From an archaeon (GTDB lineage: Archaea > Nanobdellota > Nanobdellia > Pacearchaeales > GW2011-AR1): a stretch of DNA of 64,000 bases. The notes beneath the pieces were generated by a model that did no database searches, was not told the DNA's origin, and saw only the letters and a list, made by a program, of their open reading frames with translations. Both the position numbers and the translations under genes were made by a program. Positions 9,115 to 59,384 of the stretch are shown in pieces. Position 1 is the stretch's first letter. Each line of letters begins with the position of its first letter. The stretch lies in assembly GCA_018651605.1 (NCBI GenBank), contig JABIDS010000013.1:64717-128716 (forward strand), written 5' to 3'.

Positions 9115-9699
9115 ATGGTAGAGTTAGAAGTTGAAGTTAAGGTTCGTTTGAGTGATAAGGAGGCTGTTGAGCTTCGGAAAAAGATAAAGAAGATTGCGAA
9201 TTTTAAGAAAAAGGAATCTCGGACTGATGATTATTTTGCGATTAAGAGAAAGGGTTATCCTAAGAAGGCGTTTCGGATTCGGAAGGCTGGGGGCGAGTAT
9301 GTTGTTAATTTTAAAAAATGGTTGACGCAGTATTGGGATAGGCAAATTGTTGTTAAGGAAGAGTATGAGTTTAAGACGTTGCATCCTGATGAGTTTCTTG
9401 TTTTGATGGATGATTTGGGTTTTAAACAATGGTTAAAGAAATTTAAGACAACAGAGAAATATACTTATAAGAAAGATAAGAGGGTGATTATTGAGATTAA
9501 TTTTGTGAGGCATCTTGGTTATTTTATGGAGATGGAATATATTGCTAAGCCTAGTGAGATGATGAAAGCGAAGAAGAAATTGAGAGATGTTTTGGATGAG
9601 TTGGGGATTCGGCAGAAACAGGTTACGAATAAGGGTTATACTAAAATGCTTTGGGATAAGGGTAAGAGGGGAAGGAAGTATTTTGTGGATGTTGGTTAA
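9115..9699 (+). CDS. CYTH-domain protein (triphosphate tunnel metalloenzyme / class IV adenylate cyclase family)
   Basis: The N-terminal MVELEVEVKVRL carries the ExExK signature. Its size of about 190 aa and basic beta-strand pattern are typical of the family. Confidence 0.7.
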   Translation: MVELEVEVKVRLSDKEAVELRKKIKKIANFKKKESRTDDYFAIKRKGYPKKAFRIRKAGGEYVVNFKKWLTQYWDRQIVVKEEYEFKTLHPDEFLVLMDDLGFKQWLKKFKTTEKYTYKKDKRVIIEINFVRHLGYFMEMEYIAKPSEMMKAKKKLRDVLDELGIRQKQVTNKGYTKMLWDKGKRGRKYFVDVG

Positions 9700-11650
9700 A
9701 ATTGTGAAATACATTACAAAAAAAGGTGGGAAGTATTGGCCTTCGGCTGAGATGAAAAAGATCGCATGGGTTAGTGATAATAAGATTTATGCTAAGGCTT
9801 TGAAAAATCCTGTTAAGTTTTGGGAGGGTTTGGCTAAGGAAGGGATTAGTTGGGAGTCTAAATGGAAGAAGGGTTATGAGGAGAAGTTACCTTATTTTAA
9901 ATGGTTTGTTGGTGGAAAGTTGAATTTTTCTGTTAATTGTTTGGATAGACATTTGGAGAAGAAAGGAGATAAGATTGCTTTGACTTGGATTCCTGAACCT
10001 TTAGAGGAGAAGTCAGTAAAACTGACATATAGAAGTTTACATTCTAAAGTTTGTAAATTTGCAAATGTTCTTAGAGGGTTTGGAGTTAAGAAGGGTGATG
10101 TTGTTGCTGTTTATTTGCCAATGATTCCTGAGGCTTTGATTACAATGTTGGCATGTGCAAGGATTGGTGCGATTCATTCTGTTGTTTTTAGTGCTTTTGC
10201 TGCTGATGCTCTTAAGGCACGAATTGAAGATGGTTCTGCTAAAGTTTTGGTTACTGCTGATGGTTATTATCGTCGTGGTAAGAAGGTGAGTTTAATTGAA
10301 AAGGCGAAGAAGGGGAGTAAGGGGACTAGTGTTGAGAAAGTTGTAGTTGTTAATAGGCTTGGAGGTTCTGTGAAAGGTTCTAAATTTGTGGATTTTAATT
10401 CTGTTTTGGAGAGTGCTGATGAAGAGTGTAAGCCAGAGATTATGAAATCAGAGGATACGCTTTTTATTTTGTATACTTCTGGTACTACTGGAAAGCCGAA
10501 GGGCGTGATTCATGATACTGGAGGTTATGCTGTTCAGGCATATTGGACTACGAAGTGGGATTTTAATTTGCATGATGATGATGATGTAATGTGGTGTACT
10601 GCGGATGTGGGGTGGGTTACTGGACATACATATGCTTTTTATGGGCCGTTGTTGAATGGTGGGACAAGTTTGATTTATGAAGGGAGTCCTGATTTTCCTG
10701 ACTTTTCTCGTTGGTGGAAAATTATTAAGGAGAATAATGTTAGTGTTTTTTATACTGCACCTACTGCGATTAGAATGTTTATGAAGTCTGGTGAGAAATT
10801 TATTAAGTCTAAGGATTTGGAGAGTTTGCGTGTTTTGGGAACAGTTGGTGAGCCAATTGATAATGATGCATGGAATTGGTATTTGGAGAAGATAGGTGGT
10901 GGAAGGTGCCCGATTATTGATACTTGGTGGCAGACTGAAACTGGTGGGACTTTGATTACTGCTTTGCCTGGAATTGGACCTTTTGTTCCGACTGTTGCAG
11001 GTATGAGTTTTCCTGGTGTTCAGCATATTATTGTAGATGATAAAGGTGTTGAGAAAAAGAAAGGGGAATTAGGTTTTTTGGTTCAGAAAAGTCCGTTTGC
11101 TCCTGGAATGTTGCATGGTGTTTATAAGAATCATAAGAAATATGTTGAGACTTATTGGAGATTTTGGAAGAAATTTAAGAAGCCTTACTATGATAGTAGT
11201 GATGGAGCTTTTGTTAATAGGGATGGTTTGATTAGGATTACTGGGCGGACTGATGATGTTATGAAAGTTGCAGGGCACCGGATGTCTACTGCTGAGTTGG
11301 AAGATGCTATTAATGTGCATAAAAAAGTTAATGAGTGTGCGGTTGTTCCGATTCCTCATAAGATTAAGGGCGAGGTTCCTGTTGCGTTTGTTGTTTTGAA
11401 ATCTGGTGAGGGTAGTGAGGAATTGATTGCTGGGTTGAAGAAGCATGTTGATAATAAATTAGGGCCAACTGCTCGTCCTGCTGTTGTTTATTTTGTTAAA
11501 GATTTGCCTAAGACTCGAAGTGGAAAGATTATGAGAAGGATTTTAAAAAGTTTGTTAGCTAAAGAAGAGCCGAAAGGTTTGATGACTCTGGTTAATCCTG
11601 ATTCTGTGGAGGCTGTGAAGGGGGTGATTGGAGATGTTAAGGGAGAGTAG
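9689..11650 (+). CDS. acs: acetyl-CoA synthetase (AMP-forming)
   Basis: Contains YTSGTTGKPKG, WWQTETGG and KTRSGKIMRR, together with the Acs-specific N-terminus (YWPSAEMKK...FWEGLAKE). The ORF track start at 9587 lies inside the upstream gene; ATG 9689 or GTG 9704 is more likely. Confidence 0.9.
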   Translation: MLVKIVKYITKKGGKYWPSAEMKKIAWVSDNKIYAKALKNPVKFWEGLAKEGISWESKWKKGYEEKLPYFKWFVGGKLNFSVNCLDRHLEKKGDKIALTWIPEPLEEKSVKLTYRSLHSKVCKFANVLRGFGVKKGDVVAVYLPMIPEALITMLACARIGAIHSVVFSAFAADALKARIEDGSAKVLVTADGYYRRGKKVSLIEKAKKGSKGTSVEKVVVVNRLGGSVKGSKFVDFNSVLESADEECKPEIMKSEDTLFILYTSGTTGKPKGVIHDTGGYAVQAYWTTKWDFNLHDDDDVMWCTADVGWVTGHTYAFYGPLLNGGTSLIYEGSPDFPDFSRWWKIIKENNVSVFYTAPTAIRMFMKSGEKFIKSKDLESLRVLGTVGEPIDNDAWNWYLEKIGGGRCPIIDTWWQTETGGTLITALPGIGPFVPTVAGMSFPGVQHIIVDDKGVEKKKGELGFLVQKSPFAPGMLHGVYKNHKKYVETYWRFWKKFKKPYYDSSDGAFVNRDGLIRITGRTDDVMKVAGHRMSTAELEDAINVHKKVNECAVVPIPHKIKGEVPVAFVVLKSGEGSEELIAGLKKHVDNKLGPTARPAVVYFVKDLPKTRSGKIMRRILKSLLAKEEPKGLMTLVNPDSVEAVKGVIGDVKGE

Positions 11651-12062
11651 TTTTAAAAAAGCACAATCAGGGATTATTGTAACAATTTTAATTGTGTTAT
11701 TGGTTTTGGGAAGTTTTGTTGTTCTTTGGAATATTGTTTATATGGTTGTTAGAGATAGTAGTGATGAAATTGGAATTGAAGGTTTTGTAACTAGGTTTGA
11801 AATTGAAGGTGTTAGGTTGGATAGTGGAAATGTTTATGTTAATGTTCATCGTGTTAGTGGAGATGAAGTTGTTAAGGAATTGAAGTTTGTTTTTTATTTG
11901 GATGGTGATGTTGTTGGTGAAGGTTCTAAGAGTGCAGATATTCCTAGTGAGATGGAGAGTGAGGAGTATGAGTTTTTGGGTATGGTAGTAGATATGGTTG
12001 GAGTTATTCCTGTTTTTGAGGATGGGAGTTTTGGGTTGGAGGTTGAGGGTGTTGTTGGGTGA
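11628..12062 (+). CDS. pilin-like protein with class III signal peptide
   Basis: FKKA-QSGIIVTILIVLLVLG: a basic stretch, a small residue, Q at +1, then a hydrophobic helix. Confidence 0.5.
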   Translation: MEMLRESSFKKAQSGIIVTILIVLLVLGSFVVLWNIVYMVVRDSSDEIGIEGFVTRFEIEGVRLDSGNVYVNVHRVSGDEVVKELKFVFYLDGDVVGEGSKSADIPSEMESEEYEFLGMVVDMVGVIPVFEDGSFGLEVEGVVG

Positions 12063-12091
12063 GAGAGTTATTTTATAATATTTTCCACCTC

Positions 12092-12276
12092 CCTATAAAC
12101 ATCATTTTATTTCATTGCCCGCCCTACTCGTTCAAGCATTATCTCCATCTTCCTATAAACATCATTTTATTTCATTGCCCGCCCACCCTCCCTGAATGAA
12201 TGATGTTTAATTCCCCTTCCTTTTTAATTGATAATGCTTAAACTCGCCCTCCCTGAATGAATGATGTTTAATTCCC
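12092..12276. repeat. composite nested palindrome built from two 33-nt and two 30-nt direct repeats
   Basis: DR1 CCTATAAACATCATTTTATTTCATTGCCCGCCC lies at 12092-12124 and 12152-12184. DR2 CCCTCCCTGAATGAATGATGTTTAATTCCC lies at 12186-12215 and 12247-12276. AAACATCATT pairs with AATGATGTTT, and CAAGCATTATC pairs with GATAATGCTTA. The central loop carries CCCGCCCACCCTCCC (12178-12192). Confidence 0.85.
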
Positions 12277-12396
12277 ATTATTTATCTTATTATTAATTTT
12301 TAAATATGATTTGATAATTTTAATCTCCGCAATCTTTAAATAACCTTATTGTATTTTTCTTTTATTGCAGTTCTTTTTTTGAATTGTCTGATAAAA

Positions 12397-13968
12397 ATGA
12401 GAGTCAATATTTTAATTGGAGGAAAAGCTGGACAAGGAATTAATAAGGTATCTGAGATTGTGTCGAGAGTTTTGACTGGAAGTGGTTATTATACTTTTAA
12501 TTATCGGGATTATCCGTCTTTGATTCGGGGTGGACATAATTTTAATGTTTTGTCTGTTAGTGATGCACGGGTTGGGAGTGTAGAGAGTAAACTGGATATT
12601 GTTGTTGCGATGGATGATAAAACTGTTGAGTTGCATAAGGGTGAGTTGAAGAAGGATGGGATTGTTATCATGTTTGAAGAGTTTAAATCTTTGGGAAGGA
12701 ATTTGAATATTGCTTTGTCTGGAGCTTTGATTAAGATTTTAGGAATTGATTTGAGTGTTTTGATTGAAGAGATTAAAAGTCAGTTTAAGGAAAGTGATGA
12801 GGCTGTTGTTGCTGCTGAAAAGGGTTTTGAAAGTCAGGAAAAGAAATTTGATTTTAAAAAGTTGGGTGGAGAGATTGAGATAATGCATGGGAGTAAGGCT
12901 GTTGCTTTGGGTGCTGTTGAGAGTGATATTGATTTGTATTTGGCTTATCCTATGACTCCTGCGACAGGTGTTATGCATGAGTTGGCTGCTAGGCAATATG
13001 ATGGGAAGTTTATGGTTTTTCAACCTGAGAGTGAGGTTGCAACTGTTAATGCTGGATTGGGTGCTTCGTTTGCTGGTGCTAAGGTTATGATTGGTAGTAG
13101 TGGGGGTGGTTATGATTTAATGACAGAAGGTTTGTCTCTGCAAGGTATTTCTGAAATTCCTTTAGTTGTTTATTTGGCTAGTCGTCCTGGGCCTGGGACA
13201 GGTGTTCCAACTTATAGTTTACAAAATGATTTGGATGTTGCTTTACGAGGAGGGCATGGTGAGTTTCCTAGGGTTGTGATTGCTCCAGGAGATCCTATTG
13301 AATGTGTTGGTAGTGTGAATGAGTGTATGTATTTGAGTGAGAAGTTTGGTTGTCTAAGTATTTTGTTGAGTGATAAACATTTGGCTGAAAGTGAATTTAG
13401 TTTTGATAAGAAATGTTATGATAAGAAGGTTAGTAAATTGTTGAAGGTTGATGTTATTCGGAAGATTCCTGGAGAAGGAATTGTTAAAGCTTCTTCTTAT
13501 GAACATGATGCTGATGGGAATACTAGTGAAAGCGCTGAGTTGTGTCGGAAGAATGCTGATGCTCGTGTTGCTAAGTATGGAAAGATTAAGAAAGAGTGTG
13601 AAAAATTTGAGATGGTTAAGTTGTATGGTCCTAAGGATGCTAAGAATTTGGTGATTGGTTGGGGTTCTACTAAGAGTGTTATTTTGGATGCTTTGGATTC
13701 TATTGATGGTTCTATTAAAAATGGGAAAGGTGATTGGAAGTTTTTGCAGGTTTTGTATATGAAGCCTTTGTCTTCGAAGATTCGGGAAGAGATTGAGAAG
13801 GTTTCAGAGGGGGGAGGGAATGTTATTTTAGTTGAGCAAAATGTTACTGGGCAGTTGGGTAGATTGATTAGAGAGAAGACAGGATTGAAATTAAATAATA
13901 GGATTTTGAAATATGATAGTCGTCCTTTTTATTGTGATGAGTTGAAGGAGGAGTTATTGAAATTTTAA
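12397..13968 (+). CDS. 2-oxoacid:ferredoxin oxidoreductase, fused gamma-alpha subunit
   Basis: The N-terminal gamma module reads MRVNILIGGKAGQGINKVSEIV...YPSLIRGGHN. The alpha module reads GSKAVALGAVESDIDLYLAYPMTPATGVMHELA. This is the two-subunit OFOR architecture. The ORF track start at 12349 is probably too long. Confidence 0.85.
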   Translation: MRVNILIGGKAGQGINKVSEIVSRVLTGSGYYTFNYRDYPSLIRGGHNFNVLSVSDARVGSVESKLDIVVAMDDKTVELHKGELKKDGIVIMFEEFKSLGRNLNIALSGALIKILGIDLSVLIEEIKSQFKESDEAVVAAEKGFESQEKKFDFKKLGGEIEIMHGSKAVALGAVESDIDLYLAYPMTPATGVMHELAARQYDGKFMVFQPESEVATVNAGLGASFAGAKVMIGSSGGGYDLMTEGLSLQGISEIPLVVYLASRPGPGTGVPTYSLQNDLDVALRGGHGEFPRVVIAPGDPIECVGSVNECMYLSEKFGCLSILLSDKHLAESEFSFDKKCYDKKVSKLLKVDVIRKIPGEGIVKASSYEHDADGNTSESAELCRKNADARVAKYGKIKKECEKFEMVKLYGPKDAKNLVIGWGSTKSVILDALDSIDGSIKNGKGDWKFLQVLYMKPLSSKIREEIEKVSEGGGNVILVEQNVTGQLGRLIREKTGLKLNNRILKYDSRPFYCDELKEELLKF

Positions 13969-13969
13969 G

Positions 13970-14821
13970 ATGGATGCAAATGAAATAAAACAAAATATTG
14001 GAACAAAGGAAGTTAATACTTGGTGTCCTGGATGTCCGAATTTTTTGATATTAGAAAGTGTGAAGAAAGCTGTTGCTGAGATGATTTCTAAGGGTAAGGT
14101 TCGGCAGGAGGATTTTGCAATTACAACTGATATTGGATGTCATGCGAAGATTTTTGATTATTTGAATTTGAGTGGGATTTATGGGTTGCATGGGCGAGCT
14201 TTGCCTACGGGGCTTGGTTTATGTTTAGGTAATCCTAATTTGAAGGTTTTGAGTTTTATGGGTGATGGTGCGATTTATTCTGAAGGTGCTGGACATTTTT
14301 TTAATATTGGAAGATTTAATCCTAATATGGTTTTGATTGTTCATGATAATCAGAGTTTTTCTTTGACAACGGGACAGCCGACTCCGACTTCACAGCAAGG
14401 GTATAAAAGTAAGGCAGAGCCGATTGGAGAGGTTGATGTTCCTATTAATCCAATTAAAGTTGCTTTAGGTTTGGGAATTGGATTTATTGCAAGATGTAAT
14501 GCTCGTGATTTTAATCATACTGCTGAAATTTTGAAGAAAGCTATTAATTATAATGGTTTTGCGTTTGTTGAGATTATTCAGGATTGTTTGATTTTTAATA
14601 AAGATATTAATGGGAAAGATAAGATGATGTATAAGGTTGAGGATAATGCTGATATGAAGAAGGCGTATAAGATTGCTGATGAGTGGGATTATAATGGGAA
14701 GAAGGGAAAGATTGGGCTTGGTGTTTTGTATTCTGTTGAGAAAGAAAGTTTAGATGAAAAATGGCATGCTTTGGGAAAGTTGAAGTCTGAGGGTGTTGGT
14801 TGGAAGGGGTTTGATAATTAA
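13970..14821 (+). CDS. 2-oxoacid:ferredoxin oxidoreductase, beta (TPP-binding) subunit
   Basis: Contains WCPGCPNF, DIGCH and MGDGAIYSEG (the TPP GDG motif). It starts 2 nt after the alpha subunit stop. Confidence 0.85.
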   Translation: MDANEIKQNIGTKEVNTWCPGCPNFLILESVKKAVAEMISKGKVRQEDFAITTDIGCHAKIFDYLNLSGIYGLHGRALPTGLGLCLGNPNLKVLSFMGDGAIYSEGAGHFFNIGRFNPNMVLIVHDNQSFSLTTGQPTPTSQQGYKSKAEPIGEVDVPINPIKVALGLGIGFIARCNARDFNHTAEILKKAINYNGFAFVEIIQDCLIFNKDINGKDKMMYKVEDNADMKKAYKIADEWDYNGKKGKIGLGVLYSVEKESLDEKWHALGKLKSEGVGWKGFDN

Positions 14822-14879
14822 TTTTCCCCTTAAGTAATATTTATAAATCTTAATTTCTTTATACTAATAAGAGGTTAAG

Positions 14880-15608
14880 ATGGTAAATTATTTTTTAGAA
14901 GTGTATGATAATCTTTCGTATTTTATAGGCTTGACTTTTGACATTGAAGTTTTATGGAATGTTGTTCCTTTGGTTATTGCTACGTTTTTGATTTTACTTT
15001 ATTTTGAAAGGTATAAGGAGGAGCAGGGGGGGTGGAATAGTTATTTGACTAATTCCTTGGTTTTGTTGTTTGTTTCAATAGCTCTTTTTAGATATATTCA
15101 TGGGCTTAGTGATTTGGGTGTTCAGAATTTTGTTGATTATTATCCTAAGACTATTGCAGTTGTGTTTCTTCTTTTGATTAGTTTGCTTTTGTTGAGATTT
15201 AATTTTGAGCATTTATTGCCTAAACAATTTGCTAAGTATCTTAGTTCTACTCTTACTGTGAATTTAACTGCTTATGGTATTATTTTGTTTGTCTATTCTG
15301 ATTTGATTTTTGGTTGGATTGTTATTGTATCTTTGATTGTTTTAATTTTGTTATTATCTGTTTTATTAAATGCCTTAAAGAAACCTTTTGGAGTTTTTTT
15401 TAATTTTGTTGAAAGAGAAAAGTTTCGTGAACAATTGAGAAATATAAGAGAATCTATTTTTCAAATTAAAGAGTTGAAGCATGAAGTTGTTTTTAGAGAG
15501 AAGAAATTAAAGGAAGTTAAGAAGAAAGAAATTAAGGAAGAAAAACAGGCTAAGAAAGCTAAGGAAATTGCAGATAAAGGTTTGAAGGAAACTAAAGGGA
15601 AAATATAA
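14880..15608 (+). CDS. polytopic membrane protein with a K/E-rich coiled-coil tail, hypothetical
   Basis: ORF track. TATA-like ATTTATAAAT at about 14839 and GAGGT 5 nt before the ATG. Confidence 0.6.
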   Translation: MVNYFLEVYDNLSYFIGLTFDIEVLWNVVPLVIATFLILLYFERYKEEQGGWNSYLTNSLVLLFVSIALFRYIHGLSDLGVQNFVDYYPKTIAVVFLLLISLLLLRFNFEHLLPKQFAKYLSSTLTVNLTAYGIILFVYSDLIFGWIVIVSLIVLILLLSVLLNALKKPFGVFFNFVEREKFREQLRNIRESIFQIKELKHEVVFREKKLKEVKKKEIKEEKQAKKAKEIADKGLKETKGKI

Positions 15609-16474
15609 TGGGGTTTGCTAAGAATGATGTTGAAAAGATTTTAAGTGAGTTAGATGGTGGTGTGAAAATGGTTGCGCTTGTTGCTCCGAGTTTTATTGTT
15701 GATTTTGGTTATCCTTCTTTGTTGAATCGTTTGAGTGGTTTGGGTTTTGATAAGGCTGTTGAATTGACTTTTGGTGCTAAGATGATTAATAGAGAGTATC
15801 ATAAGAAATTGAAGAATTCTAAAGAATTGGTTATTGCTTCGCCTTGTCCTGGAATTGTTCAGACTATTTTGAATAAATATCCTCAATATAAAAAGAATTT
15901 GATTTTGGTTGATAGTCCTTTGGTTGCGACTGCAAAGATTTGTCGGAAATATTATCCTGAGCATAAGTTTGTTTTTATTTCTCCTTGTGATTTTAAGAAG
16001 ATGGAAGTTGAGGCATGCAAGTATATTGATTATGTTATTGATTATGATCAGTTGAGGGCGTTGTTTGTTAAGAGGCATGTTAAGGCAAAGTGTTCTAAGG
16101 GCTGTTTGTTGTTTGATAAATTTTATAATGATTATACTAAGATTTATCCTTTGTCTGGAGGGCTTGGGAAAACTGCGCATTTGAAGGGAGTTATTAAGGA
16201 AGAGGAGGTTTTGGTTGTTGATGGTATTAAGAATGTTATGAAGTTTTTGAATAAGCCTGACCCTAAGATTCGGTTTTTGGATGTTTTATTTTGCGAAGGT
16301 GGGTGTATTGGTGGGCCTCATGTTTCTAAGAAGTTGTCTTTGGAGAAAAGGCGTAAGAAAGTGTTTAAGTATTTGGAGAAGTCTAGGGATGAGGATATTC
16401 CTGAAGATAGAAAGGGGTTGATTGATAAGGCTAAGGGGTTGAAGTTTGGAGGGAAGGTTTGGTTTGATAAATAG
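15608..16474 (+). CDS. [FeFe]-hydrogenase H-cluster-domain-like protein, minimal form (288 aa, no accessory Fe-S domains)
   Basis: Variants of all three H-domain motifs are present: IASPCPG (L1; TSCCP with the first Cys replaced by Pro), ISPCDFKKME (L2; PCxxKxxE) and FCEGGCIGGP (L3; CxxGCxxGG). The start overlaps the stop of the upstream gene. Confidence 0.65.
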   Translation: MGFAKNDVEKILSELDGGVKMVALVAPSFIVDFGYPSLLNRLSGLGFDKAVELTFGAKMINREYHKKLKNSKELVIASPCPGIVQTILNKYPQYKKNLILVDSPLVATAKICRKYYPEHKFVFISPCDFKKMEVEACKYIDYVIDYDQLRALFVKRHVKAKCSKGCLLFDKFYNDYTKIYPLSGGLGKTAHLKGVIKEEEVLVVDGIKNVMKFLNKPDPKIRFLDVLFCEGGCIGGPHVSKKLSLEKRRKKVFKYLEKSRDEDIPEDRKGLIDKAKGLKFGGKVWFDK

Positions 16475-16600
16475 GTTCGCCTTTGGCTCACAGCTTATTT
16501 TATTAAAATTTTGGGAAGCTTCGCTAACCCAAAATTTTGAATTTCTTGATAGTGTGTAAAATTTAGAAGTTATGAAGATGAGTTTTCTTTTGATTTGTTG
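16475..16600 (+). repeat. intergenic GC-hairpin/tail repeat, copy A
   Basis: Contains GTTCGCCTTTGGCTCACAGCTTATTTTAT, a hairpin AAAATTTTGGG (16505-16515) / CCCAAAATTTT (16528-16538), then TTTCTTGATAGTGTGTAAAATTTAGAAGTTATGAAGATGAGTTTTCTTTTG. Confidence 0.8.
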
Positions 16601-16639
16601 TTTTAATTGTTGGTAGATTTGATTTCCGAAGAATTAATT

Positions 16640-17512
16640 TCAATACAAAATAACTAAAACCGCACCTACAATCATTATTGCTGTTGCAATTGTTCTTTTT
16701 AAGAGATTGTGTTCTTGGAAAAGTTTTCCGCCTATGATTACTGCGAAGAAGACGCTGATTCTTTTAATCGATAAGACAAGTGCGACTGGAGCGATTTTAA
16801 CTGCTTGGATTTGTGTATATCTGTAAATGATTGTTATTAGTGAAAGGAGGAGGATTATTTTGAATGAGTTTTTTATTGGAGATTTTATTTGTTTTGTTTT
16901 TCCTGAAAGGATTAGTATTGTAAGGAAGATTATGGCAAGGAAAAGATGTTGAAATCCCATGAAGGCGTTTATAGGTAGTTTGAAATTTTTTAGAAGGGCT
17001 TTGTCTAGGATTGATGTTATTGTAAATAGGAGGAGTGCTAGAATTATGTATTTGTTTCCTTTTGTTTTTGTTAGATTTTTGAAAGGATCTAAGAATTTTT
17101 GATTTTGTTTTAGTTGGAGAATGTATGTTCCTGATAAAAGTAGGAGCATTCCAAGGATTTCTAGATTTGTTAATGATTCGTTTAGAAAAATTAATGCTCC
17201 GATTGCTACAAGTCCTGGAGTGAGGACTAAGAGAGGGAGGGCTTTACTGAGTTCTAGATTTTTTATCCCTAGCATTACGCAAAGAAAAGCTAATGTCCCT
17301 AAGATTGATTTGATGAATAATGTTATTAGAGCAGCAGTTGTTATTGCTGAGAAGGTTATGAAGAAAAAGAAAGGGATTGCTATTATTAGGTTTAGGATTG
17401 CAAAGAGTGTTGAGAATGCTAATGCTTTTTCTTTGAATAGGATTTTTTTCTCTAAGATTGCTGCAGATGCTGAGAATAAAGCGGAAGTTAATGCTAGTAA
17501 GTACCAAGTCAT
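16640..17512 (-). CDS. EamA/DMT-family transporter
   Basis: 290 aa with about 10 TM segments in a two-fold repeat. The pattern is typical of EamA. Confidence 0.7.
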   Translation of the reverse strand: MTWYLLALTSALFSASAAILEKKILFKEKALAFSTLFAILNLIIAIPFFFFITFSAITTAALITLFIKSILGTLAFLCVMLGIKNLELSKALPLLVLTPGLVAIGALIFLNESLTNLEILGMLLLLSGTYILQLKQNQKFLDPFKNLTKTKGNKYIILALLLFTITSILDKALLKNFKLPINAFMGFQHLFLAIIFLTILILSGKTKQIKSPIKNSFKIILLLSLITIIYRYTQIQAVKIAPVALVLSIKRISVFFAVIIGGKLFQEHNLLKRTIATAIMIVGAVLVILY

Positions 17513-19849: not shown

Positions 19850-20186
19850 AGGTTTTAAAAATGGTTTATACTTATATAAATTACTATGCAAGCGATATTA
19901 TATGTTTTGTTGATTTTGTTTGGGATTCCTGTAGGAAAGATTTTGTCTAGTTTGTGTCGTGGGGAGGTTAGTTTATGGCGAAAGAGATTTAGAATTATTG
20001 CATTGGTTTGTTTTCTGTTGATTGGTTTGTTTTTGTTTTTAGATTTTGAAAATAAAATTCCTGTTTTTGTTAGTTTGTTGTTTGTTGTTTTTGTTTCTTT
20101 GAATATTAAATAGAAATGTTTATATATTAAAGTTATTTATTATAGATAATTAAAAATAGAAAATATTTAATGAAAGGAGGTTGAAA

Positions 20187-20627
20187 ATGAGTGATAAAAA
20201 AGGACAAGCAGCTATGGAGTTTTTGATGACCTATGGTTGGGCTATTTTAGCGGCAGTTATTGCTATTGGTGTTCTATCTTATTTTGGGGTTTTCTCTCCG
20301 GGAAATTATGTATCTAATGTAGTTACAGTTAATCAACCTTTTGGAACTACGCAAGAAATGGCTATTAAGACTGATTCTATTGCATTTCTTTTAAGGAATG
20401 GTGGTGGAAGTAGTGCAGATATTGCAAGTGTTGCTGTTGCTGGATGTGGTAATTATTCTACTGCTTTTACATTAGCTGATGGATCCTCACAATTAGTAAC
20501 TGTTCCATGTTCTCCTGTATTAACATCGGATTCTAAGTTTAAAGGAGATATAACTATAACTTATCGTGCTGGAGAAAAAGTTCTTGATTTAACTGGAACA
20601 GGTTCTGTATCAGGTAGAGTAGAATAA
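20187..20627 (+). CDS. major pilin candidate, Flp/Epd-like class III signal peptide
   Basis: MSDKKG-QAAMEFLMTYGWAILAAVIAIGVL: G at -1, Q at +1, and E at +5 followed by F (GxxxxEF/Y). GGAGG at 20176-20180 lies 6 nt before the ATG. Confidence 0.75.
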   Translation: MSDKKGQAAMEFLMTYGWAILAAVIAIGVLSYFGVFSPGNYVSNVVTVNQPFGTTQEMAIKTDSIAFLLRNGGGSSADIASVAVAGCGNYSTAFTLADGSSQLVTVPCSPVLTSDSKFKGDITITYRAGEKVLDLTGTGSVSGRVE

Positions 20628-20699
20628 TTTTATTTTTATTTTTTTTATTTTTTTGTGTTTATGTTGGTGGTGTGAGGTGGATTTATGTTATTTTATTTT

Positions 20700-20800
20700 T
20701 ATATTGCGTCGCTTTCGTTGGCGACTTCGTCAGAGTTCTTCACTGTTGATTCTTGAAATTATGTAATTCTATCTTTTTTTGAAGATGAGTTTTTCTTTGG
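20700..20800 (+). repeat. intergenic GC-hairpin/tail repeat, copy B
   Basis: Sequence: ATATTGCGTCGCTTTCGTTGGCGACTTCGTCAGAG...CACTGTTGATTCTTGAAATT...GAAGATGAGTTTTTCTTTGG. Confidence 0.75.
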
Positions 20801-20898
20801 TTGTTGAGAGGGATTTGGGTTGAAGGTTTGGGTTGAAGGTTTTTGAATTGTTTAGGATAAATCCATAGCTTTTTAAGGTTGGACATCTTTAGTATTTT

Positions 20899-21822
20899 AT
20901 GAGAAGAAAAAAGAGTGTTAAGGTTTCTGAGAAGAAGGTTGTGAAGAAAAAGAAAGTTATGAAAACTAAAACATCTAAGGTGAAAAAATCTAAAGCTAAA
21001 ATTAAGAAAACGAAAAAAACTAAAATTCAGTTATCTAAAACCGATGAGAGTTTATCTGCCGGGTCTGGGAATATTCTTTCTAAGCCTAAAAAGAAAAAAT
21101 TTAGTAATGAGAAGGTTTCTTCTGGGATTAAAGTTTTTGATGGGATGGTTGGAAAGGGTTTTCAGAAAAATTCTACTAATCTGGCTTTAGGAGGGGTTGG
21201 TTCTGGAAAAACTATTTTTGCTATGCAGTTTTTGATTGCAGGAATGAAGAAGAATGAGAAATGTTTGTATCTGTCTTTTGATGAAGAAAAAGAATCATTT
21301 TATGCGAATATGAAGGGGTTGGGATGGGATTTGGAAAGTTATGAAAAAAAAGGAAAATTCTTTTTTCTTAAATATACTCCTCAGAAAATTAAAACTATGT
21401 TGGAGGAGGGGGGCGGAATAATTGAGAACTTAGTTTTAGGTAAAAAAATAAGTAGAATTGTAATGGATAGTATTACTTCGTTTTTGTTTTTATTTAAGGA
21501 TGAAATTGATGAGAGAGAGGCTATTTTGTCTTTGATTAGCTTGTTGAAGAAATGGGATAGTACTACTATTTTGACCTATGAAGGAGATCCTTTGAAGGAG
21601 AATGAAAGTATTCTGAAGACTAGTTCTAGGATTTTGGAATTGGAATCTGATTCTATAGTTCTTTTTTATTTCTTGAGGAATAAGGGGGAGAGGGAGAGAT
21701 ATTTAGAGATTTTGAAGGTTAAGGGTTTTAAACATCCTACAAAAGTTTATCCTTTTTCAATTGAGAAAAATGGAATTAAGATTAGTAAGAATGCGTTTAA
21801 GGGTGAGTTAAAGGCTGAGTGA
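20899..21822 (+). CDS. KaiC/RecA-superfamily ATPase (FlaH/ArlH-like) with a Lys-rich N-terminal extension
   Basis: Contains GIKVFDGMVGKGF...LALGGVGSGKTIFAMQFL (Walker A) and a hydrophobic strand + D (RIVMDSITS, Walker B-like). The first ~65 residues are strongly K-rich. Confidence 0.75.
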   Translation: MRRKKSVKVSEKKVVKKKKVMKTKTSKVKKSKAKIKKTKKTKIQLSKTDESLSAGSGNILSKPKKKKFSNEKVSSGIKVFDGMVGKGFQKNSTNLALGGVGSGKTIFAMQFLIAGMKKNEKCLYLSFDEEKESFYANMKGLGWDLESYEKKGKFFFLKYTPQKIKTMLEEGGGIIENLVLGKKISRIVMDSITSFLFLFKDEIDEREAILSLISLLKKWDSTTILTYEGDPLKENESILKTSSRILELESDSIVLFYFLRNKGERERYLEILKVKGFKHPTKVYPFSIEKNGIKISKNAFKGELKAE

Positions 21823-21827
21823 ATTTC

Positions 21828-22730
21828 TTATAACAATCCATCTAAGAATCCTGCAAGGAATACTCTTGCAAGAAAATAAACTGATATGCTCATGACTAGG
21901 ATTATTGGAAGGTGTTTTAGTCCTTGTTTTTCATCGCCTTTTCCGACTAATCCTAATACCATTGATGCGAAGATATCTATTGTAATCATGAATATTATTG
22001 AGAAATATTTTATGAAAGATATTGAGACATTGATTTTTGAAAGTGTGAAGGGCATGTTGACACTTGCGTCTACTGCCGGGAGTCCAGCTAAGATGTTTGT
22101 TAGAACTTCTACTAAGACTGTTGATAGTGAGAATAGTATTGGTGAGAAGATTGATACTGCGAGGAAAATGAAGATTACATACATTAGAACGCTTGAGGCT
22201 GCTTTTTTTTCAACGAATTTTCTTTCCCTCATACTTACTGCTGTTTGTTCTAGTAATATTGCAAGGTCTCCTCCTGCCCTTATTCCTGAATTAATTAAAA
22301 GGATTGTTTTATGGATTCTTTCAGAGTTTAATCTTTTTGACATATCTAATAGAGATGTTTCAACGTTTTTTCCTGTTGTGAGGTCTTTTCCAGTTTGCAA
22401 GATTTCAGTATCTAGTGGTGCAAATTCTGGCCTTGAACTTAAAAGTATTGCTCTATCTATTGTCATACCTGCTCTTAAGTTGCTTGACATTAATTGTAAA
22501 AAATCTGGAAAAACTTCTTCTACTTTTTTAATTCTTGTGGTTTTTTTCAAATTTTTTCTAACAATGTAAAATATTATTGTTACTATGATTGTTATAAGTG
22601 TGCTGATTGTAGATAGTAGGAGGGTTTTATAAAAATAAAGTGTTATTATTCCTACTATTATTCCTAATAAAATTGCTATGAAGACTACTTTTTTAATTGC
22701 TGAATTATTTTTTCTTATCTTTTTTTTCAT
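21828..22730 (-). CDS. type II secretion system F-domain platform protein (TadC-like)
   Basis: Contains FPDFLQLMSSNLRAGMTIDRAIL...GKNVETSLLDMSKR...SGIRAGGDLAILLEQTA plus C-terminal TM segments. Confidence 0.8.
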   Translation of the reverse strand: MKKKIRKNNSAIKKVVFIAILLGIIVGIITLYFYKTLLLSTISTLITIIVTIIFYIVRKNLKKTTRIKKVEEVFPDFLQLMSSNLRAGMTIDRAILLSSRPEFAPLDTEILQTGKDLTTGKNVETSLLDMSKRLNSERIHKTILLINSGIRAGGDLAILLEQTAVSMRERKFVEKKAASSVLMYVIFIFLAVSIFSPILFSLSTVLVEVLTNILAGLPAVDASVNMPFTLSKINVSISFIKYFSIIFMITIDIFASMVLGLVGKGDEKQGLKHLPIILVMSISVYFLARVFLAGFLDGLL

Positions 22731-22731
22731 T

Positions 22732-23613
22732 TTACAATAGGCTTGGCCTTTTTGATTTAATTAATCCTAAAAACATTATTTGAGCTAAAATTACAAAGAG
22801 GAATAATGTTATAAATAAGAGTGGAGTCATTGTTTTTGAAATGTTTACCATTGATGAGATAATTGTGAGAAATGCTACAGAGAGTGTTGGGATTATTACT
22901 GTGATTAGCATATACATTACTATTAGGGGATTTAGTTTGCTTCCGTAATCTTGTATTTGTATAAGTTGTTCTTCGTTTAGTGTTTTGATACTGTCTTTTA
23001 TTACTACTGCCATGTCGCTTCCTGCTACTATTCCGTTGCTCATCTGCCATAATGTTCTTCTAAAAAAGAGTGATGAGTTTTTTTCTCCTAATTCATCGAG
23101 GACAATGGAATCTGGTTCTCCTGAATTTATTCTTCTTACTGCTATTTTAAATTCATCACTTAAGACTCCATAATCTGATGAAGAGATATTTGCCATTATA
23201 TTAAATAAAGTAATCCCAGAATTAAGTTGAACTAGAATATCTTCTAATGCTGGGAGAAGATTTTTTTCTATGTTTTTTTGTTTTCTTGAAACATAAATTC
23301 TTGGATAGTTTATTTGACTGAAAAATAAAAATCCTGAGAATATGAATGCTATTAGGATGCCAAACAAGAAGAATTTTTTTATATTGAACATAAATAATAT
23401 TGTTGTAGATATTAAGTAAAGAAATATGATATTTATTACAAAGTTTCTTCTGCATATTCCTATATATTCTTCTCTTGTTAGATTATTGTCTGCGTTTTTT
23501 AGGTATATGTTTAATTTTGATTTTTTTTTTGGCCTTATTTTTGAGATGAAAAGTTTAGACCTTTTTTTTAATTTGTATGCTTGAGTAAATGTGAATGGTA
23601 TTCTAAATTTCAT
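22732..23613 (-). CDS. type II secretion system F-domain platform protein (TadB-like)
   Basis: Contains LPALEDILVQLNSGITLFNIM...RRINSGEPDSIVLDELG...SNGIVAGSDMAVVIKD plus TM segments. Lies 1 nt from the downstream gene. Confidence 0.8.
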   Translation of the reverse strand: MKFRIPFTFTQAYKLKKRSKLFISKIRPKKKSKLNIYLKNADNNLTREEYIGICRRNFVINIIFLYLISTTILFMFNIKKFFLFGILIAFIFSGFLFFSQINYPRIYVSRKQKNIEKNLLPALEDILVQLNSGITLFNIMANISSSDYGVLSDEFKIAVRRINSGEPDSIVLDELGEKNSSLFFRRTLWQMSNGIVAGSDMAVVIKDSIKTLNEEQLIQIQDYGSKLNPLIVMYMLITVIIPTLSVAFLTIISSMVNISKTMTPLLFITLFLFVILAQIMFLGLIKSKRPSLL

Positions 23614-23622
23614 ATTAGTTGA

Positions 23623-25257: not shown

Positions 25258-25268
25258 TTATCCTTCCT

Positions 25269-26225
25269 TTATTTTTTCTTTTTTGGTTTTCTTTTAGATG
25301 GTTTTTTGTTTTTTTGTTTTAAGGTTTTCTTTTTTTTAGAAGTTTTTAATTGTTTCTCTTCTTTTGGAATTTGTTTAGTTTTAATATTTTCTTTTTTAGG
25401 TATTTGTTTAGTTTTAATATTTTTCTTAGGCGTGGATTTAATTTCTTTTTTCTTTCTTGTAAAGATTCTTTTTATTAAAGTAATTAAAAATATGAATAAA
25501 AAGAATAAGAAAATTATTGAGAGTGTTAATATTAATTTGTCTTCTGGTATTGCTCTGTAGGCCCAATTGTTTTGAGATAGCCAATAAATTGGGTAGGCTG
25601 CAAATCCTAAGGCTGTTATGAATAAAATTAATGGCGCTTTACTTTTTTTTGGTTTGATTTGTTTTTTGTCAGTTTTTAATTGTTCTTTATTTAGGTTTTG
25701 TTTTTTATCTGTTTGTGTGTCTTTAACTTCTTTTATTTTTAAATTTAGAATTGGCCCGCCTAGCATTGGATAGTCTATATCTGCAAGGTTTCCTGATTCT
25801 AATATTTTGGCCCATTCAAGAGCTACACTATATTCTACTTTGAATAATCTTGCAACATTTTTAACTTTCATTTGTTTTCTTTCTTTGAGGATGTTATATA
25901 TTTTATCTAGGTCTGTCTGCTCTTTGCTTGGATTTATTTTTATACTTTTTAATTCAATTTTTTGTTTTCTGAGTTTTACATCTTTTACTGAGGCAAAAAC
26001 TAAAATAAGTCCTAAGAAAGACCATTGAATTAGGATAAATATTTTTGAGAGAGGGTTTATTTTTTCGCTGTTGTCGAAGATTACTTCATTTACTAAAAAG
26101 CCTGTTAAACTTTTATTGAAGTCTATTGATTCTTTACTGTTGTAGGTAAATACTCCTATATTTATTAAAAGAATTAAAATTACAATTGTAAATGCTTTTA
26201 GGAATATCGGTTTCTCCTCTTTCAT
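25269..26225 (-). CDS. membrane protein of the pilus operon with a Lys-rich tail
   Basis: ORF track. Has N-terminal and central TM segments. The tail contains the duplicated NIKTKQIPK(K/E)E, encoded by a direct DNA repeat at about 25360-25430. Confidence 0.6.
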   Translation of the reverse strand: MKEEKPIFLKAFTIVILILLINIGVFTYNSKESIDFNKSLTGFLVNEVIFDNSEKINPLSKIFILIQWSFLGLILVFASVKDVKLRKQKIELKSIKINPSKEQTDLDKIYNILKERKQMKVKNVARLFKVEYSVALEWAKILESGNLADIDYPMLGGPILNLKIKEVKDTQTDKKQNLNKEQLKTDKKQIKPKKSKAPLILFITALGFAAYPIYWLSQNNWAYRAIPEDKLILTLSIIFLFFLFIFLITLIKRIFTRKKKEIKSTPKKNIKTKQIPKKENIKTKQIPKEEKQLKTSKKKKTLKQKNKKPSKRKPKKKK

Positions 26226-26288
26226 AATGGATAGTGTGTTTGTAATTTTATAAAGGTATTGATTGAATATTGTTTGAGAATTAACCCC

Positions 26289-26303
26289 AACCTTTTTAAT
26301 ATA
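26289..26303 (+). promoter_or_regulatory. conserved promoter module AACCTTTTTAATATA (copy 1)
   Basis: The ~30-nt block AACCTTTTTAATATAcTcTTTCTTATtT is repeated at 27682. The TATA-like core lies 19-28 nt upstream of ATG 26322. Confidence 0.55.
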
Positions 26304-26321
26304 CTCTTTCTTATTTCTGAT

Positions 26322-27146: not shown

Positions 27147-27147
27147 G

Positions 27148-27654: not shown

Positions 27655-27681
27655 AGGGTTTATTCATTAATTTTGAACACT

Positions 27682-59210: not shown

Positions 59211-59384
59211 ATGGTAACAGTTAATCATGAAACATGTATTGGATGTGGGGCTTGTGAGGCGATTTGTGGAGATGTTTTTGAAATGAAAGATGCTAAGGCT
59301 TATGTTAAGGCAGGGAAGGAAAGTTCTGATGATGCGTGTGTTAAAGAAGCTATTGAAGGATGTCCTGTTGATGCGATTAGTTAG
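59211..59384 (+). CDS. 57-aa ferredoxin (single Fe-S cluster type)
   Basis: Hand translation: MVTVNHETCIGCGACEAICGDVFEMKDAKAYVKAGKESSDDACVKEAIEGCPVDAIS. It has CxxCxxC followed by a distal CP. GGAGG lies 5 nt before the ATG. It is below the ORF-track cutoff. Confidence 0.75.
   Translation: MVTVNHETCIGCGACEAICGDVFEMKDAKAYVKAGKESSDDACVKEAIEGCPVDAIS

What the first reader, a model, noticed from the sequence alone, without database searches (positions are those of the whole stretch)
15608..16474. Minimal 288-aa [FeFe]-hydrogenase H-domain-like protein next to ferredoxin-reducing OFOR and acetyl-CoA synthetase
The protein begins directly with the H-domain and has no accessory ferredoxin-like domains. 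It retains recognisable versions of the three H-cluster motifs: SPCPG, PCDFKKME and CEGGCIGGP. In motif 1 the first Cys of TSCCP, the proton-relay Cys in prototypical enzymes, is Pro, as in some non-prototypical or sensory groups. It is less than two-thirds the size of the smallest algal enzymes.

It lies in the same + strand gene run as a two-subunit 2-oxoacid:ferredoxin oxidoreductase (12397-14821) and Acs (9689-11650). That is the gene set needed for 2-oxoacid oxidation with H2 as the electron sink. Very small [FeFe] hydrogenases have been reported from DPANN archaea, and this may be one of them, or it may be a non-catalytic relative. No HydE, HydF or HydG maturase genes are in the window.
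Basis: partly seen in the sequence, partly recalled or inferred. Interest (0 to 1): 0.68.

Follow-up and report, generated by a model that had tools for sequence, protein, structure and literature searches.

The report
Known ultraminimal DPANN [FeFe] hydrogenase
The gene encodes a 288-residue, catalytic-domain-only [FeFe] hydrogenase of the "group E" type described in DPANN archaea in 2024, next to the oxoacid oxidoreductase it probably serves, so it is real but already explained.

Summary
ORF 15608-16474 (+) encodes a 288-aa protein that is a single PF02906 H-domain (E=1.4e-34). It keeps all four H-cluster cysteines (C80, C127, C229, C233) and the CN-contacting Lys, Pro and Ser. It lacks the canonical proton relay: C299 is Pro, S319 is Ile, and the E279-E282 stretch is deleted. 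An AlphaFold model matches only [FeFe] hydrogenases in the PDB.

More than 1,100 homologues of 275-300 aa exist. Nearly all of those that carry an organism label come from Pacearchaeota, Woesearchaeota or Nanoarchaeota MAGs. The nearest larger relatives are sensory-type (group C) hydrogenases.

OFOR genes lie within 8 kb in 40 of 80 related loci and directly upstream in about 20. The window has no radical-SAM or HydF-like gene.

Size, architecture, host, sister group, synteny and missing maturases all match the "group E ultraminimal" hydrogenases of Greening et al., Cell 2024. One member of that group evolved H2 after artificial maturation.

The most likely role is ferredoxin-dependent H2 evolution as the electron sink for OFOR. 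Still open are maturation without HydEFG and the proton route.

Seen in passing: the window has an extreme strand bias, with about 1.6% C at fourfold sites of the + strand.

The parts
15608..16474 (+). hydA: 288-aa H-domain-only (group E type) [FeFe] hydrogenase. Predicted [4Fe-4S]H ligands are C80, C127 and C229, with C233 as the bridging Cys.
   Evidence: ORF and motifs. PF02906 E=1.4e-34. Alignments to CpI and Tm HydA. Ligands invariant in 120 homologues. AF2 model and Foldseek hits.
14880..15608 (+). TM242: a 242-aa protein with several N-terminal hydrophobic (apparently membrane-spanning) segments, judged by eye from the sequence, and a Lys/Glu-rich tail. Its stop overlaps the hydA ATG (TAATG), so the two are probably co-transcribed and translationally coupled. 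It is not a conserved hydrogenase partner.
   Evidence: ORF and junction sequence. No Pfam or NCBIfam family. About 60 homologues; the three that carry an organism label are Pacearchaeota or Woesearchaeota. The same position is seen only in the nearest relative, L082/L083, and homologues lie elsewhere in other genomes. It is absent between OFOR-beta and hydA in 80 loci.
14840..14876 (+). A TTTATAAA box (14840-14847), which looks like an archaeal TATA box, and a GAGGT Shine-Dalgarno-like site (14872-14876) ahead of TM242. This is a possible promoter for a TM242-hydA transcript.
   Evidence: Read directly from the sequence. Inference only; no archaeal promoter model was available.
13970..14821 (+). 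OFOR beta subunit, with the TPP-binding domain and the N-terminal CPGC cluster motif.
   Evidence: PF02775. NCBIfam 2-oxoacid:ferredoxin oxidoreductase beta families, below cut-off. PDB 5b48_B E=1e-45.
12397..13968 (+). OFOR alpha subunit, a gamma-alpha fusion type with no ferredoxin-like delta domain.
   Evidence: PF01558 and PF01855. TIGR03710 E=1.5e-126. PDB 5b48_A E=5.7e-63.
9689..11650 (+). AMP-forming acetyl-CoA synthetase (acetate--CoA ligase).
   Evidence: PF16177, PF00501 and PF13193. TIGR02188 scores 792 bits against a cut-off of 725.
59211..59384 (+). 57-aa single-cluster [4Fe-4S] ferredoxin. It is the only ferredoxin gene found in the window and a candidate electron carrier between OFOR and HydA. 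It lies 43 kb away and the link is not shown.
   Evidence: CIGCGACEAIC motif. PF13370 Fer4_13 E=1.2e-14.
16503..16541 (+). Hairpin followed by a U-rich tract, between the convergent hydA and EamA genes. It may be a terminator.
   Evidence: Sequence. Fold of -20.4 kcal/mol with z=-1.8, which is weak.

Best explanation
The gene encodes a member of the group E ('ultraminimal') [FeFe] hydrogenases of DPANN archaea. The host is most likely a Pacearchaeales- or Woesearchaeales-type Nanoarchaeote.

Shown here:
- The protein is a bare, condensed H-domain.
- C80, C127 and C229 would hold the [4Fe-4S]H subcluster, and C233 would bridge to the [2Fe]H subcluster.
- K130, P27-S28 and S103-P104 correspond to the CpI residues (K358, P231-S232, S323-P324) that line the diiron site.
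- There is no accessory Fe-S domain.
- The canonical Cys-Glu-Ser-Glu-Arg proton relay is absent.

Inferred:
- Reduced ferredoxin made by the adjacent two-subunit OFOR docks directly at the exposed H-cluster. The 57-aa ferredoxin at 59211-59384 is a candidate.
- The enzyme reduces protons to H2. This regenerates oxidised ferredoxin, so that a 2-oxoacid (probably pyruvate) can be oxidised to acyl-CoA.
- Acs then converts acetyl-CoA to acetate, running in the ATP-forming direction.
- Protons reach the solvent-exposed cluster by a non-canonical route.
- The diiron subcluster is made by an unknown route that does not need HydEFG.
For: - Domain and ligands: PF02906 is the only domain. The four Cys align to CpI C300, C355, C499 and C503. 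They are invariant in 120 of 121 family sequences, together with K130, E133, P27, S28, S103 and P104.
- Fold: the AF2 model has pLDDT 75.7 and pTM 0.77. The top 45 PDB matches are all [FeFe] hydrogenases (TM 0.6-0.73), followed by a sharp drop.
- Family: more than 1,100 homologues of 275-300 aa. There are hits in 200 GTDB species genomes, and nearly all of the 80 listed are labelled Pacearchaeota, Woesearchaeota, Nanoarchaeota or simply archaeon.
- Sister group: the nearest larger relatives have the architecture Fer4, H-domain, FeS, then PAS, histidine kinase, sigma-54 activator or receiver domains. They are 27-32% identical and have the same S-x-C-P motif.
- Context: OFOR-beta lies within 8 kb in 40 of 80 loci and ends less than 60 nt upstream of hydA in about 20. 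Acs lies upstream in many.
- Literature (PMC11216029): group E averages 286 aa, is monomeric with a single [4Fe-4S], differs in its proton-transfer residues, is sister to group C, and often has adjacent OFOR genes. The Fm enzyme bound an H-cluster after [2Fe]adt maturation and was biased toward H+ reduction. Maturases are absent even from a closed genome.
Against: - No sequence of the characterised enzymes (Fm, Na) was available, so identity to an assayed protein is unknown. No tree with HydDB reference sequences was built.
- Activity in the literature was obtained only with a synthetic cofactor. No HydEFG is in the window, so the in vivo cofactor state is unproven.
- The proton relay is missing, as it is in sensory hydrogenases, which I recall (not checked here) turn over slowly.
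- AMP-forming Acs normally runs toward acetyl-CoA, so the direction of the whole module is an inference.
- hydA here is separated from the OFOR genes by an unrelated membrane-protein gene and probably has its own promoter.
Confidence: 0.72

Rival explanations
1. The enzyme is the same, but it runs in the opposite physiological direction. HydA takes up H2 from the environment or host to reduce ferredoxin. OFOR then works as a pyruvate (2-oxoacid) synthase on acetyl-CoA that Acs makes from acetate. Together they form an acetate + CO2 + H2 assimilation module.
For: The Acs is a canonical AMP-forming acetate--CoA ligase scoring above the equivalog cut-off, and such enzymes usually activate acetate. 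From general knowledge, OFORs and [FeFe] hydrogenases are reversible. The Fm enzyme showed bidirectional catalysis by electrochemistry. The gene order Acs, OFOR alpha-beta, hydA recurs.
Against: Fm was clearly biased toward H+ reduction. From general knowledge, reducing ferredoxin with H2 is thermodynamically uphill without bifurcation or high H2 pressure, and no bifurcating subunits (HydB, HydC) were seen near the gene. The published genome survey reads these organisms as obligate fermenters.
Confidence: 0.12
2. The protein is not an H2-evolving enzyme in vivo. It would carry only the [4Fe-4S] subcluster, or a slow H-cluster, and would act as a redox partner or sensor-like protein. The reasons would be that the organism cannot make the diiron subcluster and that the proton relay is absent.
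For: There is no HydE, HydG or HydF in the window, and the literature reports them absent from most archaeal carriers. The relay positions are never Cys or Ser in the family. The closest larger relatives are sensory-type proteins.
Against: The residues that contact the diiron site (K130=K358, P27-S28, S103-P104, G231-G232) are invariant across 120 sequences, which is hard to explain if no [2Fe] subcluster is bound. The protein has no output domain. A family member binds the H-cluster and evolves H2. Linkage to OFOR fits an electron sink.
Confidence: 0.12
3. It is a Nar1/NARF-like Fe-S assembly factor rather than a hydrogenase.
For: From general knowledge, PF02906 also covers Nar1 and NARF proteins, which likewise lack the relay Cys.
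Against: There is no N-terminal Cys-rich cluster domain. The protein starts directly with the H-domain, and only C80, C127, C229 and C233 are invariant ligand-type Cys. The host is archaeal. The nearest relatives are prokaryotic sensory hydrogenases and NCBIfam [FeFe]-hydrogenase models. No Nar1 reference sequence was available for a direct test.
Confidence: 0.02

Closest known systems
Group E 'ultraminimal' [FeFe] hydrogenases of DPANN archaea (Greening et al., Cell 2024, PMC11216029), for example Fm from Ca. Forterrea multitransposorum
   Same: Size: 288 aa against a group mean of 286. H-domain only, with condensed loops and a single predicted [4Fe-4S] plus [2Fe] site. All ligating Cys are present and the proton-transfer residues are non-canonical. 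The host is a DPANN (Nanoarchaeota) archaeon. OFOR genes are adjacent. Identity to group C type proteins is 27-32%, against the 28% reported for Fm and TmHydS. No maturases lie nearby.
   Different: Nothing substantive was found. In this lineage a non-conserved membrane-protein gene is inserted between OFOR-beta and hydA and is translationally coupled to hydA. Identity to the assayed enzymes could not be measured.
Group C (sensory, HydS-type) [FeFe] hydrogenases of bacteria
   Same: They have a compact H-domain of about 260 aa, the S-x-C-P motif without the relay Cys, and the same four ligand Cys. They are the nearest non-minimal relatives (profile scores of about 128-179 bits).
   Different: They carry an N-terminal Fer4 domain, a C-terminal PF04060 Fe-S motif, and PAS, histidine kinase, sigma-54 or receiver output domains. 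None of these is present here.
Group A prototypical [FeFe] hydrogenases (CpI, and Chlamydomonas HydA1 as the smallest formerly known)
   Same: Same fold (TM 0.6-0.73), the same four Cys ligands, and K358, E361, P231-S232 and P324 equivalents. Like HydA1, it has no F-domain, so ferredoxin must reach the H-cluster directly.
   Different: C299 is Pro, S319 is Ile, the E279-E282 stretch is deleted, M353 is Ser and M497 is Leu. The protein is about 170 residues shorter than HydA1. Scores are only 25-53 bits by phmmer.

Membership tests
[FeFe] hydrogenase H-domain superfamily (PF02906) | Significant match to the H-domain profile, and the H-domain fold | tested here: met
   PF02906 scores 120.3 bits against a cut-off of 22.1 and covers profile positions 2-245 of 245. 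The top 45 Foldseek PDB hits are all [FeFe] hydrogenases.
[FeFe] hydrogenase H-domain superfamily (PF02906) | Four cysteines that ligate [4Fe-4S]H and bridge to [2Fe]H (CpI C300, C355, C499, C503) | tested here: met
   C80, C127, C229 and C233 align to them. They are invariant in 120 of 121 sequences; the exception is one database representative with C229Y.
Group E ultraminimal [FeFe] hydrogenase (Greening 2024) | Catalytic domain only, about 286 aa, no accessory Fe-S or sensor domains | tested here: met
   288 aa with a single Pfam domain. Homologues are 275-300 aa.
Group E ultraminimal [FeFe] hydrogenase (Greening 2024) | Encoded by DPANN archaea (Nanoarchaeota, Micrarchaeota, Iainarchaeota) | tested here: met
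   Nearly all of the 80 best genome loci are labelled Pacearchaeota, Woesearchaeota, Nanoarchaeota or simply archaeon; four carry bacterial labels. The window carries the archaeal-type D-aminoacyl-tRNA deacylase family PF04414. The window's own taxon is inferred from its relatives.
Group E ultraminimal [FeFe] hydrogenase (Greening 2024) | Monophyletic clade, sister to group C sensory hydrogenases | tested here: inconclusive
   In a scan of 1.84 billion representatives, about 30 minimal proteins rank first, followed directly by proteins whose sampled members have group C type architecture. No formal tree with HydDB or Table S2 reference sequences was possible because the supplements are not held.
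Group E ultraminimal [FeFe] hydrogenase (Greening 2024) | Non-canonical proton-transfer residues | tested here: met
   Position 79 (C299) is P, A, T or V and never Cys. Position 99 (S319) is I, A, V or L. There is a 4-residue gap over E279-E282.
Group E ultraminimal [FeFe] hydrogenase (Greening 2024) | Binds the H-cluster and evolves H2 after maturation | not testable with these tools
   Reported for Fm only. This needs expression, [2Fe]adt maturation, gas chromatography and FTIR.
Group A prototypical [FeFe] hydrogenase | TSCCP motif with the relay Cys, and the E279/S319/E282/R286 proton pathway | tested here: not met
   The motif is SPCPG, position 99 is Ile, and the Glu stretch is deleted. 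TIGR02512 (group A) scores only 42 bits against a cut-off of 406.
Group C sensory [FeFe] hydrogenase | N-terminal Fer4 domain and C-terminal Fe-S/PAS or other signalling domain | tested here: not met
   No such domains are present. They are present in relatives P0149, P0150, P0153, P0159 and P0178.
Nar1/NARF (eukaryotic CIA factor) | N-terminal Cys-rich cluster-binding segment; eukaryotic host | tested here: not met
   The protein starts at the H-domain and has no N-terminal Cys. The context is archaeal. No direct sequence comparison with Nar1 was made.
HydEFG-matured hydrogenase system | hydE, hydF and hydG present in the genome | tested here: inconclusive
   They are absent from the 64-kb window: there is no CX3CX2C motif in any frame of 40 aa or more, and the only full-length P-loop ORFs are, judged by eye from their sequences, SMC-like, KaiC-like and a secretion-type ATPase. 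The rest of the genome could not be searched.

The most novel reading that the evidence does not exclude
HydA may dock directly on the delta-less two-subunit OFOR and take electrons from its single [4Fe-4S] cluster. That would make a ferredoxin-free 'pyruvate:proton oxidoreductase'. Its diiron site would be made by a pathway that does not use HydEFG. The reading is suggested by two things. Both partners have lost every ferredoxin-like domain, and OFOR-beta and hydA are separated by only 8-53 nt in about 20 of 80 related loci. In this window, however, the two genes are split by an inserted membrane-protein gene, which argues against an obligate complex.
Probability: 0.08. Interest if true: 0.6.

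Novelty: new member of a known kind. Interest (0 to 1): 0.2.

Why it matters
It adds one more example of the smallest known hydrogenases and of their OFOR, Acs and HydA fermentation module in DPANN archaea. The family-wide conservation table from 120 sequences shows which residues an 'irreducible' H-domain keeps: four Cys, K358, E361, P231-S232, S323-P324, and a family-specific FYNDYTK block. It also shows which it drops: the whole canonical proton relay, M353 and M497. The unresolved questions belong to the family, not to this locus. They are how the diiron subcluster is made without HydEFG and how protons reach the cluster. This locus does not make either question newly testable.

Tried and rejected
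1. I looked for the sequences of the assayed group E enzymes (Fm, Na) to measure identity. The paper's supplements are not held. Two cluster look-ups of 20 divergent minimal representatives returned no named Forterrea protein. Identity to a characterised enzyme therefore remains unknown.
2. I tested whether the membrane protein TM242, which is translationally coupled to hydA, is a conserved hydrogenase partner such as the 'hyd6TM' mentioned in the paper. This was rejected.
   - It has no homologue beside hydA in 80 loci.
   - Where a gap exists between OFOR-beta and hydA it holds unrelated genes, which from their sequences look like DNA-binding, TspO-like, toxin-antitoxin, Fic-like and phosphatase-like proteins.
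   - TM242 homologues sit elsewhere in other genomes.
   - Only the closest relative shares the arrangement.
3. The sigma-70 promoter and intrinsic-terminator scan of 11500-16700 gave counts at shuffle level and does not apply to archaea.
4. The downstream hairpin is only weakly better than shuffles, at z=-1.8.
5. I considered whether the extreme GC skew is an assembly artefact. An independent ENA contig (L081) is 99.9% identical over 5.2 kb, and relatives show the same phenomenon in both orientations. An artefact is therefore unlikely.
6. The invariant C112 looked like a possible substitute relay Cys. It is not conserved in divergent group E or group C sequences, so I dropped the idea.
Full report
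**Observation**

The ORF at 15608-16474 (+) starts with ATG and encodes 288 residues. It contains SPCPG (78-82), PCDFKKME (126-133) and CEGGCIGGP (229-237), exactly as reported.

Pfam finds one domain only: PF02906, the [FeFe]-hydrogenase large-subunit C-terminal (H) domain. It covers residues 20-237 and the whole profile, at E=1.4e-34. The best NCBIfam match is TIGR04105, 'monomeric [FeFe] hydrogenase, B1', at 128 bits over the H-domain part of the model. The group A models score about 42-48 bits. All are far below their full-length cut-offs, as expected for a protein that lacks the other domains.

**Residue mapping**

HMMER alignments to solved structures (T. maritima HydA 7p5h, E=2.4e-13; CpI, E about 4e-12) give the following map in native CpI numbering.

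| Query residue | CpI equivalent |
|---|---|
| S78-P79-C80-P81-G82 | S298-C299-C300-P301-G302 |
| S125-P126-C127 | M353-P354-C355 |
| K130 | K358 |
| E133 | E361 |
| L227 | M497 |
| C229 | C499 |
| C233 | C503 |
| S103-P104 | S323-P324 |
| I99 | S319 |

In the alignment the E279-A-T-E282 stretch of CpI has no counterpart in the query. The four cluster-ligating cysteines and the residues around the diiron site are therefore present. The canonical proton relay (C299, E279, S319, E282) is not.

In an alignment of the query with the 120 best database homologues:
- C80, C127 and C233 are invariant, and C229 is Cys in all but one sequence.
- P27, K130, E133, S103, P104, G231 and G232 are invariant, and A26 and S28 differ in only one sequence each.
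- Position 79 is Pro in 82, Ala in 31, Thr in 4 and Val in 4 sequences. It is never Cys.
- Position 99 is Ile, Ala, Val or Leu.

This pattern indicates purifying selection on an H-cluster pocket together with a family-wide loss of the relay.

**Fold**

An AlphaFold2 model built from a 16-sequence alignment has mean pLDDT 75.7 and pTM 0.77. The conserved FYNDYTK segment (169-181) is modelled with low confidence. Foldseek against the PDB returns 45 hits at E below 1e-7. All are [FeFe] hydrogenases (HydABC HydA, CpI, CbA5H, the D. desulfuricans enzyme, Chlamydomonas HydA1), with query-normalised TM scores of 0.6-0.73. The next hit is at E=4e-3 and is unrelated.

**Family and placement**

The protein has more than 1,100 homologues at E<1e-5. 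The best 120 are almost all 275-308 aa long, and those that carry names are labelled archaeon or Candidatus Pacearchaeota. A scan of one genome per GTDB species found 200 encoding loci. Nearly all of the 80 best are Pacearchaeota, Woesearchaeota, Nanoarchaeota or 'archaeon' MAGs, at 52-73% identity.

A profile search of 1.84 billion cluster representatives ranks about 30 minimal proteins (250-316 aa) first. Next come proteins of 350-1,030 aa in which the match starts near residue 60. The eight of these that I checked have a Fer4 domain, then the H-domain, often a PF04060 Fe-S motif, and in five of them PAS, histidine kinase, sigma-54 activator or receiver domains. That is the architecture of sensory (group C type) hydrogenases. 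They are 27-32% identical to the query, have an equally compact H-domain and share the S-x-C-P motif without the relay Cys.

**Context**

Upstream on the same strand lie three genes.
- A canonical AMP-forming acetate--CoA ligase, 9689-11650. TIGR02188 scores 792 bits against a cut-off of 725.
- OFOR alpha, 12397-13968.
- OFOR beta, 13970-14821.

The closest solved structures to the OFOR subunits are those of Sulfolobus tokodaii (5b48, 5b46), with E=5.7e-63 for alpha and 1e-45 for beta. No ferredoxin-like delta domain is present.

Across the 80 related loci, OFOR-beta lies within 8 kb of hydA in 40. It ends less than 60 nt upstream on the same strand in about 20. Acs lies further upstream in many.

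In this window a 242-aa gene for a predicted membrane protein sits between OFOR-beta and hydA. It has its own TTTATAAA box and GAGGT site, and its TAA stop overlaps the hydA ATG. This protein belongs to a family of about 60 proteins with no Pfam domain; the three that carry organism labels are Pacearchaeota or Woesearchaeota. It occupies this position only in the closest relative and lies elsewhere in others. Where other genomes have a gap between OFOR-beta and hydA, it holds unrelated genes. I therefore treat it as a lineage-specific insertion and not as a hydrogenase subunit.

The only ferredoxin gene found in the window is a 57-aa single-cluster ferredoxin at 59211-59384.

No frame of 40 aa or more contains CX3CX2C. 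The only full-length P-loop ORFs look, by eye, like an SMC-type protein, a KaiC-type protein and a secretion-type ATPase. So there is no hydE, hydG or hydF in the window.

**Comparison with what is known**

Greening et al. (Cell 2024, PMC11216029) defined the group E [FeFe] hydrogenases. The paper reports the following.
- They are monomeric, H-domain-only enzymes that average 286 residues.
- They occur in DPANN phyla, including Nanoarchaeota.
- Their loops are condensed, and they have no extra Fe-S clusters.
- All ligating Cys are present, but the proton-transferring residues differ.
- They form a monophyletic clade, sister to the sensory group C.
- Maturases are absent from most genomes, including a closed one.
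- The Fm enzyme contained 4.2 Fe per protein, took up [2Fe]adt, showed H-cluster FTIR bands, and was bidirectional with a bias toward H+ reduction.
- Fm is 28% identical to the group C enzyme of T. maritima.

Every feature I could test here matches. Two could not be tested. One is a formal tree with their reference sequences, because the supplements are not held and look-ups did not surface Fm. The other is enzymatic activity.

**Mechanism**

Shown: the protein is a bare H-domain with an intact, conserved H-cluster pocket, is genetically linked to OFOR and Acs, and has no F-domain and no canonical relay.

Inferred: OFOR oxidises a 2-oxoacid and reduces a small ferredoxin. The ferredoxin donates directly to the exposed H-cluster, as in algal HydA1, and H2 leaves as the electron sink. 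Acs turns acetyl-CoA into acetate with ATP gain. Protons arrive by a non-canonical route. The diiron subcluster is made without HydEFG by an unknown route.

I put family membership at about 0.93 and the physiological role at about 0.65-0.7.

The rivals are the reverse direction (H2-driven pyruvate synthesis from acetate, 0.12), a protein that is non-catalytic or sensor-like in vivo (0.12), and a Nar1-like factor (0.02).

**Novelty**

The kind is known and has been characterised biochemically. The identical protein is already in public assemblies, unannotated. The locus adds nothing mechanistic beyond the published family picture. Interest is low, at 0.2.

**Seen in passing: strand bias**

The window has a very strong strand bias, and this is more unusual than the finding itself.
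- Base composition is T 39.0%, A 27.7%, G 23.1% and C 10.2%, giving a GC skew of +0.39 with no sign change over 64 kb.
- At fourfold-degenerate sites, expressed on the + strand, genes on both strands have the same composition: T 0.62-0.63, A 0.18-0.23, G 0.13-0.17 and C 0.015-0.017.
- Third-position GC skew is +0.7 to +1.0 in + strand genes and -0.3 to -0.85 (on the coding strand) in - strand genes.

The bias is therefore mutational and strand-specific. It is not a coding effect.

An independent assembly reproduces the sequence at 99.9% identity. Among 41 relatives, the hydA third-position skew ranges from -0.82 to +0.94 and tracks the skew of the locus (r=0.85).

A comparable G/C disparity (29.8% C against 15.0% G) has been described for Microgenomates bacteria and attributed tentatively to unidirectional replication (PMC7143001). 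Two full-text searches did not surface a report of it for Pacearchaeota or Woesearchaeota; I read only one of the returned papers.

Noticed in passing
window 1-64000 (whole window): Extreme strand compositional asymmetry. Overall C is 10.2% and G is 23.1% (GC skew +0.39), with AT skew -0.17. At fourfold-degenerate sites the + strand has about 1.6% C and about 63% T, whichever strand the gene is on. OFOR-beta has no C at all at third codon positions. There is no skew switch in 64 kb. Relatives show hydA third-position GC skew from -0.82 to +0.94. A similar G/C disparity is reported for Microgenomates bacteria (PMC7143001), and two full-text searches surfaced no report for these archaea. It suggests very strong C-to-T pressure on one strand, for example from unidirectional replication or missing uracil repair.
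   Followed up: partly
window 16292-16294 (codon for C229); database protein P0001: The 90%-cluster representative P0001 is identical to the window protein except for C229Y, which removes one [4Fe-4S]H ligand. It may be a population variant carrying a dead allele, or a low-coverage sequencing error in another assembly.
   Followed up: no
window 14880-15608 (+): A 242-aa predicted membrane protein with a Lys/Glu-rich tail, from a family of about 60 unannotated proteins whose few labelled members are Pacearchaeota or Woesearchaeota. It is inserted between OFOR-beta and hydA and translationally coupled to hydA (TAATG). The arrangement is shared only with the nearest relative (L082/L083).
   Followed up: yes
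window 16640-17512 (-); L081 3088-3492: In the public ENA contig of the same organism, the gene caller did not call the EamA transporter gene on the - strand. It called a 134-aa + strand ORF instead, even though the - strand ORF has a clear EamA match. The strand bias appears to mislead gene prediction.
   Followed up: partly
window 61771-62997 (+) and 61328-61774 (+): A NifS/IscS-type cysteine desulfurase (TIGR03402 at 469 bits, below its cut-off), preceded by a Peptidase_C39-like protein. The desulfurase is a possible sulfur source for Fe-S and H-cluster assembly. No scaffold gene was looked for.
   Followed up: no
window 3436-5976 (+): Adjacent genes with NMO (FabK-like enoyl reductase or nitronate monooxygenase) and beta-ketoacyl synthase (FabF-like) domains. 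These are bacterial-type fatty-acid synthesis components in a DPANN archaeon.
   Followed up: no
L082/L083 2767-4146: In the relative that shares the OFOR-beta, TM242, hydA arrangement, hydA is followed by rubrerythrin, desulfoferrodoxin (superoxide reductase) and a response-regulator gene. This O2/ROS-defence set beside the O2-sensitive enzymes is absent at this position in the window.
   Followed up: no
protein P0129: A 4,122-aa database protein with 14 separate matches to the minimal H-domain profile (E=4.5e-69). It may be a tandem multi-H-domain protein or a gene-model or assembly artefact.
   Followed up: no
P0151; loci L029, L042, L071, L074: A few minimal H-domain proteins sit in records labelled as bacteria: Candidatus Berkelbacteria, Fusobacteriaceae, 'bacterium' (twice), and Candidatus Paceibacterota on a 389-kb contig. 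This may reflect mis-binning or mislabelling, or transfer to CPR bacteria.
   Followed up: no
window 20181-31205: A cluster that looks like an archaeal type IV pilus or archaellum-like system. It has several small proteins with N-terminal hydrophobic segments that resemble class III signal peptides, a P-loop ATPase (23623-25257, -), polytopic membrane proteins (21828-23613, -), a KaiC-like ATPase (20899-21822) and an 869-aa Cys-rich protein (27673-30282). This was read from the translations only.
   Followed up: no
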